A DNA stretch of 64,000 nucleotides from Eledone cirrhosa (Eukaryota). Below, piece after piece: positions 17,184 to 48,637 of the stretch; the stretch's first letter is position 1; each line of letters opens with the position of its first letter. A model generated the notes under the pieces. The model saw only the letters and a list, made by a program, of their open reading frames with translations. It was not told the DNA's origin and ran no database searches. Made by a program: the position numbers and the translations under genes. The stretch spans positions 327,918,001-327,982,000 of the forward strand of contig OZ024741.1 in NCBI GenBank assembly GCA_964016885.1, read 5' to 3'.

Positions 17184-18412
17184 TTATAAAGAATTAGTAT
17201 ATCTAGTAACATATATATACACAGATGCATACTTATGTTAGCAAATATATAGGTTTTGTCTTAGTAACTATGTGGTTCAATGCATGGGGTTGCAGAACAA
17301 TAATATGAGAGACGTAAAATAAGAAAATTATAAAATTAACTTTCTTACTTAAATTTCACTCCCAACTAATTAGTTTCTGAAAGGGATTAAACGTACTATC
17401 CGAAGAACGCACGGAGAAGCCTTTCGTCATCAGGGAAGTCTATTCTCAGCTAAGTTTCCAGGCAATACGTGGACACAGGGAACTTATACAAAAATAATTC
17501 AGTGGATGGAAAAAGCAAAGCGAGGACTAATTCCAAGCCATTGATAAAATCACTGCCTACTGCGTCGGTGGCAAATTCAAAAGAATCAATCACGTGACAT
17601 CGAGGTCAATCAGTAGATAGTGGTTTGTTAGTAAGACAGCAGCCGCACTGTTACTATAGCAGCAGCTTTGGCCATTTTTGCTCGACAAATAATTTTGGAG
17701 ATAATTATAAAGAATTAGTATATCTAGTAACATATATATACACAGATGCATACTTATGTTAGCAAATATATAGGTTTTGTCTTAGTAACTATGTGGTTCA
17801 ATGCATGGGGTTGCAGAACAATAATATGAGAGACGTAAAATAAGAAAATTATAAAATTAACTTACTTACTTAAATTTCACTCCCAACTAATTAGTTTCTG
17901 AAAGGGATTAAACGTACCATCCGAAGAACGCACGGAGAAGCCTTTCGTCATCAGGGAAGTCTATTATCAGCTAAGTTTCCAGGCAATACGTGGTCACAGG
18001 GAACTTATACAAATTCCATACTTATACTAATTCCAAGCCATTGATAAAATCACTGCTATAGTAACAGTGCGGCTGCTGTCTTACTAACAAACCACTATCC
18101 ACTGATTGACCTCAATGTCACGTGATTGATTCTTTTGAATTTGCCACCGACGCAGTAGGCAGTGATTTTGTCAATGGCTTGGAATTAGTCCTCGCTTTGC
18201 TTTTTCCATCTACTGAATTATTTTTGTATAAGTTCCCTGTGTCCACGTATTGCCTGGAAACTTAGCTGAGAATAGACTTCCCTGATGACGAAAGGCTTCT
18301 CCGTGCGTTCTTCGGATAGTACGTTTAATCCATTTCAGAAACTAATTAGTTGCGAGTGAAATTTAAGTAAGTAAGTTAATTTTATAATTTTCTTATTTTA
18401 CGTCTCTCATAT
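17184..18412. mobile_element. ORF-less 521-bp unit: 1.7 tandem copies followed by an inverted copy; each copy carries an HHR (retrozyme-like)
   Basis: 17184-17704 is repeated from 17705; 18055-18412 is the reverse complement; flanked by (TA)n. Confidence 0.85.
17358..17439 (-). ncRNA. Type I hammerhead ribozyme motif (copies at 17879-17960 minus and 18276-18357 plus)
   Basis: ACUUCC-CUGAUGA-C-GAAAGG...CCUUUC-A-GAAAC-UAAUUA-GUU/GGGAGU; palindromic ACUAAUUAGU stem III. Confidence 0.8.
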
Positions 18413-18427
18413 ATATATATATATATA

Positions 18428-19480
18428 TATCATAAAATATGTCGTTAGAATCACTAATATAATATATACCATTTCCTCTCCCAATTAGTATAATTAACCA
18501 TATAAAAAATCAATTAGATCAAGCTATAAGAATAAAGGCTCCTATGAAGAAATCTCCGACAAATAACCGAAAGCAGCCCCTTCGCGGTTGCTATAATAGA
18601 TTATTTATCTAACATTTCGATAGCATGTAAAAATCGACCAGATATACAGTCAACTAAACACAATTATTTGTAAAATTGAACTTAGAAGAATTGCGTACAT
18701 ACCTAATTATCTCTACCATGATTTCATCCGAACTTTAAGACATCCGATAACAAAGAATGTCCAGAGCTTCGGAATCATCAGGAGCGAGCTCAAAATAAGA
18801 CATTTAATTTTCCAAAGTGATCGCGCCAAAAATACATCAATTTAATTTATTAATTTCTCATTGAGCCACAACGTGACCGGTTGCAAAACACATATATATC
18901 TATGACTTTATATATATATATATGTAAATCTGTATATGTAATATTCTCCCGTTAGGTTGAGATACAATTTGGCGGTATTAGGCTGCGCTTTCTAGCAATA
19001 AGCCTACCCGCCGTAAGCAACTAATCTAACTTTACGCTGCCACGTCACGATTCTTAGACATTTTTGAATGTATTTTTGGCGCCATCACTTTGCAAAATTA
19101 AATGTCTTATTTTGAGCTCGCTCCTGATGATTCAGAAGCTCTGGACATTCCTTGTTATCGGATGTCTTAAAATACGGATGAAACCATGGTAGAGATAATT
19201 AGGTATGTACGCAATTCTTCTAAGTTCAATTTTACACCTAATTGTGTTTAGTTGACTGTATATCTGGTCGAGTTTTACATGCTGTCGAAATGTTAGATAA
19301 ATAATCTATTGTAGCCACCGCGAAGGGGCTGCTTTCGGTTATTTGTCGGAGATTTCTTCATAGGAGCCTTTATTATTATAGCTTGGTCTAATTGATGTTT
19401 TATATGGTTAATTATACTAATTGGGAGAGCAAATGGTATATATTATATCTAGTGATTCTAAAGACATATTTTATGATATA
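18428..19480. mobile_element. Fold-back element with ~410-bp imperfect inverted arms (18428-18840 / 19065-19478), each carrying an HHR
   Basis: Arms are reverse complements with scattered substitutions; no ORF. Confidence 0.88.
19121..19194 (+). ncRNA. Type I hammerhead ribozyme motif with extended stem II (inverted copy at 18711-18784)
   Basis: CUC-CUGAUGA-U-[~47 nt; UCCGAA/UUCGGA and GACAUUC/GGAUGUC helices in the minus copy]-U-GAAAC-CAUG-GUA/GAG. Confidence 0.75.
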
Positions 19481-45911: not shown

Positions 45912-46168
45912 GCTATTAGAATGAAATAGTATGGCAGAATATTAAATTTTAAATGTTAATTGAACAAGTACTCTCATGCTTTCGCAATCTTCAGGTTCAT
46001 AATGTGTGGTAACAGTCAAGTTTGCAATTTTCGACAGTTGAAAATTGCAAACTTGCAAACTTGACTGTCACCACACATTATGAACCTGAAGATTGCGAAA
46101 GCATGAAAGTACTTGTTCAATTAACATTTAAAATTTAATATTCTGCCATACTATTTCATTCTAATAGC
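45912..46168. mobile_element. 257-bp near-perfect hairpin with an HHR in each arm
   Basis: Plus arm 46081-46119: UGAAC-CUGAAGA-U-UGC-GAAA-GCA-U-GAAA-GUAC-UU/GUUCA; minus arm 45961-45999 has GAGA instead of GAAA. Confidence 0.85.
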
Positions 46169-46904
46169 ATTATAAATTTTAAAGGATTGTAAATAAAACG
46201 AGTAAATCAGACAAAGTTGGAATTCCTTTTATTTATATATATATATATATATATATATATATATACACAACATTACGAAAGACGATGTTACATAAATTGT
46301 TTATTCAGTATAGTTATTTCAATGGTACCCTTATGCAATCCACGTTGTTACTAATCCATTTGTTGTTGGTTTAGGACCGGTATCTTCCGATGAAAGTCCT
46401 ATTACGTGATATGCCACAGGCAAAAAGACAAGTTCTTCTTCTCATGTGGCTGGCAGACATATGTGCATTTAAAGGTTGCTTTTAGCTGTTGTGTTCACAA
46501 TTTGTTGAGTGAGGCGTTATATATGTGTCAATTAGTGATTCTCACCTCCTCCACCTACCATAGATTCGGGGTTGTAAATTATCAAAAGAATATGTCTCTC
46601 ATGTAAACATGCAGGTCTCGTTTATATGTCAATACAAGAGCACGAATTACAGTGTCATTCTACTGACATTGTTTAAAAGAGGCTTTTTGCAGTATTGCAA
46701 ACGACTCAAATATTATTACATTCAGGCGAAAACATCAGGAAGCCGGTCTTCCTGGTGGTTTCTTCCGAATGAAACAGTTCTAGTCCAGTATATATATTAC
46801 AGCCCCACATTATACCCTAACGGATAGTACGATCTATACGTGGATACTTTACGTCTTGATGTGGTAGCTAAGTATATGTTATGTTTATACCATTACTTAT
46901 TTGC

Positions 46905-48637
46905 ATAGGGAACGTTTCCATGTACCAAAGTATCGTATTCCTGTCTTCCCCCGGTTGCAACGTTTTTTGAAATATCCACTTCTGCGTTTACATATTGACT
47001 TTGTTAGTTTCAGAAGATATATATATATATATATATATATGTATATATATATAAATATATATATATATAAATATATATATATATAAAGATAAATAACGAT
47101 TAGGTTTCGCTTACTTGTATTAGAACTATAGAACTAGCGGCATTTATACTTGTCACTGTCCTGATCTAGAAATATTCATTTGGTTGCTTAATCTTTCACA
47201 TGCATGAAAGTTTACACCATGCTGGTAAAGTGTTAAAGCAGTAACTCACTTCGATTACGAAGAGTTAAATATTAATTTATATTTTCAAAGTATGCCATTT
47301 GATGAAACTGAATATCTTCAATACTGGTTATATTATGTAATAGAATGACCAATAGGGTCTTATCAGTGGCAAATGCAGCAATGCCAAGATTAATGGTTGA
47401 GCAGGCTTATTTTAGGTCGCTCTAATAGTAATCTAATATAACTAACTTTGTATAAGTTATTATATACATGTTTATACACAAACACACACACACACACACT
47501 CACAAATATATATATATATATATATATATATATATATATATATATATATATATATATATATATATATATATATATATATATATATACATATGCATATATA
47601 TATATGTATATATATATATATATATATATATATATATATATCTAGTTATGTAATAAACAACATAATATAATTATATATATATATATATATGTGTGTGTAT
47701 GTATGTATATATATATATATATATATATATACGTTGTTCCGGGTTGAATCGGAGGTAACCACAGTAAGTAAGGTACTCAATACATTGCAGAGTATATCAG
47801 TTTTAATATAGATGAGATTCTACAGGACTAGAACTGTTTCATTCTTTAGAAATCATCAGGAATCTGGGTATCAAAAAATAAGTATGGTATTTATAGGTCT
47901 CTTCAGGTGGTAGGAGAGGGTAGGGAGTGGGATGTGTGTAGGTCAATGGTTGATTGAAAAGGGAATTCATTAAAAGCTAACTCTTCAAAGCTATAGTTTA
48001 CTTTTAGAGTAAGAAAGGCAGAACGAATTCTATAAACAAGTTCAGGATGGGGTGCCACTCCTTATTGTTAAGCTTCTCTTAAGCTAACAGGTGTCTATAA
48101 GATCATTGGGGGTCAGTCATGGTTGATGGATTTAAAGAAAAGGGAGATTCTTTAAAAGCTAAATTCTTTAAGTTTCTACTAAGTGACAAAGGCCTAGAGA
48201 ATTCTGTAGACCAATTCAAAATATTGAGTGCATATCATACAGTTATCTTCAAATTTCTCTATAACTATTCAATTATATGACAAAAATTAACAGACACATT
48301 CACAAACACACCCACTCACAACTCGCGCGCACCCACATACACCCACACATACATATATACATATATATATATATATATGTAAATATATATATATATATAT
48401 ATATATATATATATATATATATATATATATATATATATATATATATATATATATATATATATATATATTTATTAAAATAACAGATTAAAGTTTAAGCAAA
48501 GAATCGCTGCTTTCACCCTTAACGGGATCTTCTGAAACTAACAAAGTCAATCTGTAAACGCAGAACTGGATATTTCAAAAAACGTTGCAACCGGAGGAAG
48601 ACAGGAAGACGATAGTTTGGTTCATGGTGACGTTCGC
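46905..48637. repeat. ~110-bp inverted repeat pair (46905-47018 / 48526-48637)
   Basis: gttgcaacgttttttgaaatatcca...ttagtttcagaagat and its reverse complement. Confidence 0.8.
47730..48365 (-). mobile_element. Probable PLE pLTR, with an inverted partner at 55880-56372; carries a degenerate HHR
   Basis: Imperfect reverse complement of 55880-56372 with an indel; CUGAUGA-U-UUC-UAAA-GAA-U-GAAACAGUUC at ~47823-47866 (minus). Confidence 0.75.

What the first reader, a model, noticed from the sequence alone, without database searches (positions are those of the whole stretch)
17358..47866. Recurrent mismatch at the base of HHR stem II across unrelated families
Canonical HHRs usually close stem II with a Watson-Crick 10.1-11.1 pair, typically G-C. 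Here unrelated families place a mismatch between CUGANGA and the helix, and between the helix and GAAA. The mismatch is U.U at 26474, 19121, 46081 and 47823, A.A at 31682 and 22962, and C.A at 17358, 36826 and 9729. Recurrence in about nine families argues against random decay. It may be a lineage-enriched HHR subtype with attenuated, dimer-dependent or protein-dependent activity, and standard descriptors would tend to miss it.
Basis: partly seen in the sequence, partly recalled or inferred. Interest (0 to 1): 0.75.

Follow-up and report, generated by a model that had tools for sequence, protein, structure and literature searches.

The report
Mismatch-tolerant hammerheads of Penelope retroelements
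The mismatched base pair is real and is the standard form in most of these jumping-gene families, but it is a tolerated variant of a predicted self-cutting RNA, already published in axolotl, Hydra and other animals, and close relatives in the same genome swap between paired and mismatched forms, so it is likely a relaxed position and not a new ribozyme subtype.

Summary
Eight of nine sites are type I hammerhead (HHR) motifs with the stated 10.1-11.1 mismatch; 22962 has a non-standard core and only 3 genome matches. The mismatch is the family state in seven families (U·U 100/100, A·A 97/100, C·A 25/25, 23/25, 19/20), so it is not decay. The 19121 family is mixed. In 1.2 Mb of evenly spaced genome samples, 47 of 84 motifs are mismatched and only 9 are G-C.

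It is not lineage-specific. U·U is published and cleaves (PMC3088659; axolotl, PMC7229834). A published table shows a mismatch in 15 of 25 Hydra-clade Penelope families and C·A in a Chara element (PMC8557442 File S2). One 310-nt retrozyme here has 4,216 U·U and 3,755 A-U copies whose only fixed difference is this base. Palindromic loop III is common in both classes.

Best reading: a relaxed position in slow, dimer-type retroelement HHRs. I found no print record of A·A and A·G families or of the natural one-base pair. The scan noted related cases earlier on other DNA.

The parts
9729..9868 (-). Family G type I HHR motif, C10.1·A11.1 (9852/9750), 103 nt between core and GAAA, palindromic loop III, 9-bp stem I; about 970 nt 3' of a Hydra-like PLE endonuclease region
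   Evidence: 4,085 genome matches, C10.1 in 96 of 100 listed; C·A in 23 of 25 loci, 2 not parsed
17358..17439 (-). Family D HHR motif, C·A (17426/17378), 49 nt between core and GAAA, 8-nt palindromic loop III; about 520-nt repeat unit
   Evidence: 881 genome matches, C10.1 in 98 of 100 listed; C·A in 25 of 25 parsed, of 30 loci; spacing
17879..17960 (-). Second family D copy, C·A, tandem with the first
18276..18357 (+). Third (inverted) family D copy, C·A, one mismatch in stem II and one in stem I
18711..18784 (-). Family E HHR motif, U·U, 3-bp proximal stem I; first loop III base changed in this copy
19121..19194 (+). Family E HHR motif, U·U in this copy; the family is mixed at 10.1-11.1
   Evidence: 161 genome matches; U·U 10, A·C 5, A-U 4, G-C 4, G·U 2 of 25
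22958..23004 (+). Site I: hammerhead-like motif with non-standard core (U3, C4, A8) and A·A; a degenerate second copy lies near 22620; low copy, status doubtful
24992..25034 (-). Family A copy (inverted), U·U
26474..26516 (+). Family A HHR motif, U10.1·U11.1 (26487/26500), 4-bp stem II, 4-nt palindromic loop III, predicted cut after 26510; in a 494-nt tandem unit (retrozyme-like)
   Evidence: 10,350 genome matches, 100 of 100 listed U·U
26968..27010 (+). Second tandem family A copy, U·U
28498..28570 (+).
31345..31388 (-). Family H HHR motif, A·A, two changes in stem I of this copy
31682..31720 (+). Family H copy, A10.1·A11.1 (31692/31704), truncated just 5' of the core
   Evidence: 1,630 genome matches, A·A 97, U-A 2, A-U 1 of 100 listed
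32086..32202 (-). Family F inverted copy, C·A
34338..36406 (+). Broken Penelope-like ORF (RT, CxCX5C linker, GIY-YIG-like end) upstream of the family F motif; inverted 5'-truncated copy at 32035-34338
36826..36942 (+). Family F HHR motif, C·A (36837/36926), 90 nt between core and GAAA, 424 nt 3' of the PLE endonuclease region
   Evidence: 62 genome matches, all C10.1; C·A 19, C·U 1 of 20 loci, two of them the window's own
45961..45999 (-). Family B inverted copy, U·U, GAAA changed to GAGA
46081..46119 (+). Family B HHR motif, U·U (46093/46104), 3-bp stem II with a tetraloop, same stem II layout as published Hydra Penelope HHRs
   Evidence: U·U in 4 of 4 copies shown, two of them in the window
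47815..47865 (-). Family C HHR motif, U·U (47852/47841), 3-bp stem II, stem III able to form in a monomer; inverted copy at +56313 with a broken core
   Evidence: U·U 14, U-A 1 of 15 sampled copies
48488..48539 (-).
   Evidence: U·U in 18 of 20 sampled copies
49651..49716 (+). Family K HHR motif, A-U at 10.1-11.1 (paired comparison; family mixed)
50142..50186 (-). Family J HHR motif with canonical G10.1-C11.1, 3' of a Hydra-like PLE ORF (paired comparison)
62595..62632 (+). Family N HHR motif, U3-A8 core, canonical G-C; inverted copy at -62513 (paired comparison)

Best explanation
These are type I hammerhead motifs at the 3' ends of Penelope-like retrotransposons and in short non-coding repeats likely derived from them, and the first pair of stem II is likely a relaxed position that drifts between paired and mismatched states because these ribozymes are predicted to need only slow cleavage as dimers.

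Shown: the motifs; their location 3' of PLE ORFs (F, G, J, K) or in 310-640-nt repeat units (A, D, E, the 310-nt family; H only weakly); fixation of the mismatch in seven families; toggling among G-C, A-U, U-A, G·U, U·U, C·A, A·C, A·A and A·G while the next pairs change in compensated fashion.

Inferred: two motifs in a tandem or read-through transcript pair through the palindromic loop III and cut 3' of position 17, which releases unit-length RNA. The helix from 10.2 onward still stacks under the sheared A9·G12 pair, so a mismatch at 10.1-11.1 would slow but not abolish cleavage. Every mismatch seen is one substitution away from A-U or U-A, so in an AT-rich genome drift can reach them once G-C is lost.
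For: Family fixation.

Census: 47 mismatch, 35 Watson-Crick, 2 G·U of 84 motifs; G-C only 9 of 84. Counted once per locus and family: 39 of 57 mismatched. Of 20 sampled families, 12 were mismatch-only, 6 paired-only and 2 mixed.

Selection on the fold: in the three 14-nt stem II families (27 copies), pair II.1 is U·U 11, A-U 11, G-C 5, while II.2 and II.5 are Watson-Crick in 27 of 27 and II.4 in 26 of 27, with compensated swaps at II.2-II.4. Family D swaps A-U to U-A at II.3, and family G relatives swap C3-G8 to U3-A8, both keeping C·A.

Natural pair: a 310-nt retrozyme with 4,216 U·U and 3,755 A-U copies of 8,070. Units are 98.4-99.4% identical between classes, arrays 99-100% identical inside, and 10.1 is the only fixed difference between 6 U·U and 8 A-U arrays.

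Literature: axolotl HHR_Amex2 with U·U cleaves 22% as monomer in 1 h (6% for HHR_Amex1, for which no such mismatch is described) and much better as dimer (PMC7229834 section 15). Natural U10.1·U11.1, and U·U as the best tolerated mispair (PMC3088659 section 8). File S2 of PMC8557442.
Against: No cleavage data exist for any motif of this genome. Copy number does not prove cleavage: in an anole PLE, HHR-dead mutants still insert in vitro (PMC11167929 passages). Published activity covers U·U only; C·A, A·A and A·G are untested in what I read. Cervera and de la Peña 2014 call G10.1-C11.1 highly conserved in metazoan PLE HHRs, which differs from this genome. C10.1 was found only with A11.1 in the census (13 of 13), which could mean a preferred non-canonical pair and not free drift. 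The lists of 100 matches are the first places on the largest contigs, not random draws. The family E tree is mostly unresolved (2 of 23 inner branches starred).
Confidence: 0.68

Rival explanations
1. The mismatch is a selected brake or a specific non-canonical pair (U·U, C·A) that tunes cleavage down or makes it depend on a dimer or on the element's own protein; this is the first reader's subtype.
For: C10.1 goes only with A11.1 (13 of 13 census motifs) in several lineages and in a Chara PLE. C·A survives compensated changes nearby. C-G never occurs in 84 motifs. U·U is in 14 of 25 published Hydra-clade families. The less diverse U·U form of the 310-nt family has slightly more copies than the A-U form (4,216 vs 3,755).
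Against: Paired and mismatched forms co-amplify in E, K and the 310-nt family. No link to palindromic loop III (26/39 vs 9/17) or to stem II length (U·U at 12 to 97 nt). C·A is one transition from U-A, and one family shows both (F12). In the G/K lineage the constant mismatch is C·C at pair 4 (8 of 9 and 22 of 24 copies), not pair 1.
Confidence: 0.17
2. The mismatched motifs, or at least the C·A, A·A and A·G ones, no longer cleave and are kept as protein-binding folds or as passengers, because PLE insertion may not need cleavage.
For: HHR-dead PAc RNA still inserts in vitro, and no reads end at the cut site (PMC11167929). Metazoan PLE HHRs are very slow in vitro (PMC4209133). Family O fixes A at position 4 in 20 of 20 sampled copies, where the pattern left that position free.
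Against: CUGANGA, GAAA and UH are kept in diverged subfamilies, with C3-G8 to U3-A8 covariation in a C·A lineage. The axolotl U·U motif cleaves.
Confidence: 0.12
3. The mismatch is a register artefact: the 5' letter is the known extra nucleotide between A9 and 10.1 of minimal PLE HHRs, and the true 10.1-11.1 pair is Watson-Crick.
For: PMC4209133 describes a conserved extra nucleotide before G10.1-C11.1. In D and H the next pair is G-C, and the A·C copies of K can be drawn with an extra A followed by G-C.
Against: An unpaired letter also stands on the 3' side. The extra-5'-letter register was never the best-scoring one among the listed census and window motifs. The next pair is A-U or U-A in A, B, C, E and F.
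Confidence: 0.03

Closest known systems
Axolotl non-LTR retrozyme hammerhead HHR_Amex2 (Cervera and de la Peña 2020, PMC7229834; section 15 read whole, other passages)
   Same: Type I HHR in tandem non-coding repeats, U·U at the base of helix II as the family state (about 60,000 copies), short helix III, better cleavage as a dimer.
   Different: One family and only U·U. Here many families and also C·A, A·A, A·C and A·G; no activity data here.
HHRs of Hydra-clade Penelope-like elements (Craig et al. 2021, PMC8557442; section 11, passages, File S2 table read)
   Same: Motif 3' of an RT + GIY-YIG ORF with CxCX5C linker. By my count of the table: U·U 14, U·C 1, G-C 7, G·U 3 of 25 families (two Hydra entries share one motif sequence). 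C·A in PLE-X1_cBra of Chara. Family B has the same stem II layout.
   Different: The table puts the two letters in the core columns, and the passages I read do not discuss them. Its Hydra-clade loops II are short (3-10 nt), unlike the 50-115-nt arms of D, F and G. No A·A or A·G.
Natural U10.1·U11.1 hammerhead (Perreault et al. 2011, PMC3088659; section 8 and passages read, figures not seen)
   Same: Same mismatch, named as a natural variant and as the best tolerated mispair.
   Different: Treated as a rare variant; their filter rejected such hits. Here it is the commonest mismatch in a genome.
Minimal and palindromic-helix-III HHRs of metazoan PLEs (Cervera and de la Peña 2014, PMC4209133; parts 1-2 of 4 read)
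   Same: pLTR location, inverted and tandem copies, palindromic loop III, predicted dimer action, many families per genome.
   Different: They report one extra nucleotide between 9 and 10.1 and a highly conserved G10.1-C11.1. Here the unpaired letters are symmetric and G-C is 9 of 84.
Short-stem-III PLE hammerheads that cleave as dimers (Lünse, Weinberg, Breaker, RNA Biol 14:1499, doi 10.1080/15476286.2016.1251002; only its reference entry and a review's summary seen)
   Same: Short palindromic stem III, PLE association, dimer cleavage.
   Different: The paper is not held, so I cannot say whether its alignments already show these mismatches.

Membership tests
Type I hammerhead ribozyme | Core C3 U4 G5 A6 N7 G8 A9, G12 A13 A14, A15.1-U16.1, H17 | tested here: met
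   Met at 8 of the 9 named sites; not met at 22966 (U3 C4 ... A8)
Type I hammerhead ribozyme | Three helices around the core, stem I open | tested here: met
   Stem I 3-9 bp, stem II at least 3 bp from 10.2, stem III palindromic or 2-3 bp; compensated changes across families; the +31685 copy lacks its 5' stem I strand
Type I hammerhead ribozyme | Watson-Crick, usually G-C, 10.1-11.1 pair (typical, not defining: published active exceptions) | tested here: not met
   U·U, C·A or A·A at all nine sites; exceptions in PMC3088659 and PMC7229834
Type I hammerhead ribozyme | Self-cleavage 3' of H17 | not testable with these tools
   No assay possible; no RNA run listed
Rfam hammerhead families (clan CL00010) | Score at or above the gathering cut-off | tested here: not met
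   0 hits in the window; family A 18.6 bits and a G-C sister 38.6 bits against HH9, cut-off 52; the two differ at other positions too
Penelope-like element pLTR hammerhead (Hydra clade) | Motif on the sense strand 3' of an RT + C-terminal GIY-YIG ORF | tested here: met
   F 424-435 nt, G 971 nt, J 1,426 nt downstream in the window; G has a sense PLE hit within 1.5 kb upstream in 6 of 25 loci; Pfam RVT_1 and GIY-YIG on window ORFs. Not shown for A, B, C, D, E or H
Penelope-like element pLTR hammerhead (Hydra clade) | RWK-type motif, DKT, CxCX5C linker, no CCHH | tested here: inconclusive
   CxCX5C is in the ORF before F; RWR and DKT are in the related ORF at 53644-54321 (criteria). No tree was built and CCHH was not checked
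Non-LTR retrozyme | Non-coding tandem units of a few hundred nt, one type I HHR per unit | tested here: met
   A 440-520 nt (same-strand neighbour in 17 of 30 loci), D about 520 (8 of 30), 310-nt family (10 of 10), E about 640 (2 of 25), H about 440 (1 of 12)
Non-LTR retrozyme | Expressed as linear and circular unit-length RNA | not testable with these tools
   No RNA run listed for family A
Minimal PLE HHR of Cervera 2014 | No helix III/loop 3, one extra nucleotide before G10.1-C11.1 | tested here: not met
   All named motifs have a loop III of 4-14 nt, and the extra-5'-letter register never scored best

The most novel reading that the evidence does not exclude
In animal retroelement hammerheads the 10.1-11.1 pair follows its own code: U·U and C·A (and A·A) are selected non-canonical pairs that act as a rate governor. 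They hold cleavage low until two motifs dimerise or the PLE protein binds, and about 100,000 such motifs in this genome are invisible to strict searches. The 310-nt retrozyme, with A-U and U·U arrays that differ at this one base, would be the natural experiment.
Probability: 0.17. Interest if true: 0.6.

Novelty: new member of a known kind. Interest (0 to 1): 0.3.

Why it matters
The finding shows how loose the textbook G10.1-C11.1 pair can be in animal retroelements: G-C in 9 of 84 sampled motifs, a mismatch in 47. By rough extrapolation (70 motifs per Mb) this genome holds about 200,000 motifs, roughly half of which a filter that demands a pair would discard. That matters for ribozyme censuses. 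The 310-nt family gives a ready one-base natural comparison for measuring what the pair costs. If A·A and C·A forms cleave well as dimers, the accepted sequence rules of the hammerhead core need a footnote. The central claim, a new lineage-specific subtype, does not hold.

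Tried and rejected
- A DNA search of the genome with 101 nt of family A gave no candidates (the tool skips common words), so short patterns were used instead.
- Rfam at low stringency on the whole window listed 150 of 304 matches, none a hammerhead, mostly TA-repeat noise.
- Sequencing runs: no RNA holder listed for family A; no reads were laid.
- First census versions: one search listed ten hits in one A-rich satellite (L120) that I reject as false. In the final census I dropped 2 of 86 hits (L120:3067 satellite; L036:5827 mis-registered U3-A8 copy). 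In one search three family D rows marked A·A come from a mis-registered pattern and are ignored; the other seven are C·A 6, U-A 1.
- Coupling of U·U with A17, suggested by scan notes on phages: not seen here. A17 is in 14 of 18 U·U but also 11 of 11 A-U motifs, and in 3 of 14 U·U families of File S2.
- Link of mismatch to palindromic loop III or stem II length: none.
- The family E tree was too weak to order the states.
- Papers not held: Lünse et al., Nelson and Uhlenbeck 2008, Long and Uhlenbeck 1994. An id recalled from memory gave an unrelated paper.
- The 2026 retrozyme preprint (part 1 of 5 read) has no occurrence of 'mismatch', 'stem II' or 'helix'; its supplements are closed.
- Searches for C·A or A·A at this position in print gave no such description among the papers listed (one search listed 20 of 193). 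Figures were not visible, and the supplementary alignments of PMC4209133, PMC7229834 and PMC3088659 were not read and may show them.

Full report
Setting. The window lies in a 3.0-Gb AT-rich animal genome. It is a nest of Penelope-like elements (PLEs): several ORFs match reverse transcriptase and GIY-YIG profiles, at least six PLE remnants are visible by tblastn, and long inverted repeats typical of PLE insertions are everywhere. Rfam finds nothing at its cut-offs.

Observation. All nine named sites show the stated letters between CUGANGA and stem II and between stem II and GAAA. The sites at 9729 and 36826 were missed by my first scans only because 103 and 90 nt lie between the two core halves. 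Eight sites are regular type I motifs. The ninth (22966) has the core UCGAUAA; its patterns match 1 and 3 places in the genome, and the one copy outside the window is U-A, so it does not count as a family.

Is the mismatch the family state? Patterns with N at 10.1 (and at 11.1 where the length limit allowed) were run on the genome. Family A: 10,350 matches, 100 of 100 listed U·U. H: 1,630, A·A 97, U-A 2, A-U 1 of 100. D: 881, C10.1 in 98 of 100, C·A in 25 of 25 parsed out of 30 loci. G: 4,085, C10.1 in 96 of 100, C·A in 23 of 25 with 2 unparsed. F: 62, all C10.1, C·A in 19 of 20. C: U·U in 14 of 15 sampled copies. B: 4 of 4 shown. E: 161 matches and mixed, U·U 10, A·C 5, A-U 4, G-C 4, G·U 2 of 25. 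Listed matches are the first places on the largest contigs. Decay after insertion is excluded for seven families.

Genome census. I took 120 evenly spaced 10-kb stretches from the 12 largest contigs and scanned them with a descriptor that scores stem II only from pair 10.2. It gave 86 hits, against 0 in reversed sequence and 0 in three shuffles. After dropping two false hits, 84 remain: A-U 24, U·U 21, C·A 13, G-C 9, A·C 6, A·G 4, A·A 3, U-A 2, G·U 2, so 47 mismatched. One per locus and family: 39 of 57. Of 20 families, 12 were mismatch-only, 6 paired-only and 2 mixed in the sample. The window's bias is therefore the genome's bias. The descriptor needs a standard or U3-A8 core and so misses, for example, family O.

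Subtype or relaxed position? Three families with a 14-nt stem II and an AACAA loop carry U·U, A-U and G-C at pair 1, while pairs 2-4 and stem I change in compensated fashion. Family K carries A-U 13, A·C 6, G·U 3 and U·U 2 of 24. The clearest case is a 310-nt tandem family found while chasing site I: 8,070 matches, 4,216 U·U and 3,755 A-U. In 6 U·U and 8 A-U arrays the units were 98.4-99.4% identical between classes, each array was pure and 99-100% identical inside, and position 10.1 was the only fixed difference. The U·U class is the less diverse, so probably the derived one (inference). Both forms spread equally well. Loop III is an exact palindrome in 26 of 39 mismatched and 9 of 17 Watson-Crick motifs, and U·U occurs with 12 to 97 nt between the core halves. 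The dimer-type architecture belongs to the whole group and not to the mismatch.

Are the families independent? Only partly. F, G, J and K lie on the sense strand 3' of Hydra-like PLE ORFs, and G and K share C·C at pair 4. A, D, E and the 310-nt family sit in short repeat units that fit non-LTR retrozymes, H only weakly; a 2026 preprint derives such retrozymes from PLE pLTRs (10.64898/2026.07.22.740005, abstract and part 1 read). B and C could not be tied to an ORF.

Mechanism. From the literature: A9·G12 forms a sheared pair next to G10.1-C11.1 (PMC11300833 passage); motifs with a short palindromic helix III work as dimers (PMC4209133; review PMC6765202 passages); U·U is the best tolerated mispair at 10.1-11.1 (PMC3088659 citing earlier mutagenesis); the axolotl U·U motif cleaves 22% as monomer in an hour and much better as dimer. 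Recalled, from no call: G10.1 N7 helps bind a divalent ion at the A9 phosphate, so losing G10.1 should slow catalysis. I infer slow, dimer-assisted cleavage after position 17 that releases unit-length RNA, with weak selection on pair 1. All mismatches seen are one substitution from A-U or U-A, which fits drift in an AT-rich genome. Against certainty: copy number does not prove cleavage, since HHR-dead PAc RNA still inserts in vitro (PMC11167929), and C·A, A·A and A·G are untested in anything I read.

Comparison with print. U10.1·U11.1 was reported in 2011 and as a 60,000-copy axolotl family in 2020. File S2 of Craig et al. 2021 lists 26 Hydra-clade rows (25 families); by my reading 14 have U·U, 1 U·C, 7 G-C and 3 G·U, from Hydra, sea anemone, coral, sea cucumber, sea louse, acorn worm and octopus, and a Chara PLE has C·A. 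So the feature is neither new nor special to this lineage. I found no text describing A·A or A·G family states, 50-115-nt arms closed by C·A, or a natural one-base A-U/U·U pair. The most relevant paper (Lünse et al.) is not held, and several supplements were not read.

Descriptors. Rfam HH9 gives family A 18.6 bits and a G-C sister 38.6 bits, both under the cut-off of 52, so Rfam misses paired motifs too. The searches of Craig et al. did catch mismatched motifs.

Earlier scan notes pointed me to File S2 and reported related cases on other DNA of this genome (C·C at pair 4; an A·A family) and U·U in phages. None was noted near this window.

Verdict. Observation mostly right and well above chance. 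Interpretation partly right: not decay, and easy to miss, but a known and tolerated variant of PLE/retrozyme hammerheads and not a lineage-specific subtype. Interest 0.3.

Noticed in passing
window 48488-48539 (-), family O: High-copy hammerhead-like family with A in place of U4 as the family state (20 of 20 sampled copies), U·U at stem II base in 18 of 20, and a stem III that can form in a monomer; sense PLE endonuclease hits lie 0.9-1.1 kb upstream in 3 sampled loci.
   Followed up: partly
L094, L219-L228, L277-L288 (310-nt retrozyme; not in the window): Young family, 8,070 motif matches, long pure arrays with an inverted head, split into U·U (4,216) and A-U (3,755) forms that differ at one fixed base.
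   Followed up: yes
window 9729-9868 and 49651-49716; families G and K: C·C mismatch at pair 4 of stem II in 8 of 9 G and 22 of 24 K copies while pair 1 varies; already noted by the scan elsewhere in this genome.
   Followed up: partly
L097:8775 and relatives: Family with A10.1·G11.1 in 4 of 4 sampled copies from 3 loci; one copy lies 2.2 kb 3' of an ORF related to window 13493-15925.
   Followed up: no
window 62595-62632 and L061, L091: U3-A8 core variants as family states: family N (G-C base) and relatives of family G (C·A base).
   Followed up: partly
window 13493-15925 (+): 810-aa open PLE-like frame (RT and GIY-YIG-like end), different from the Hydra-like ORFs, inside long inverted repeats; my scans reported no standard HHR in the 600 nt after it.
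   Followed up: no
window 42427-45912 (-): LINE-type remnant with an endonuclease/exonuclease/phosphatase domain and RT in consecutive frames.
   Followed up: no
window 2211-2732 (-): Frame with a PHD finger match.
   Followed up: no
window 22619-22663 and 22958-23004: Two diverged copies of a motif with a UCGAUA(A/G) core whose flanks are 76% like the 310-nt retrozyme; an old, rare relative.
   Followed up: partly
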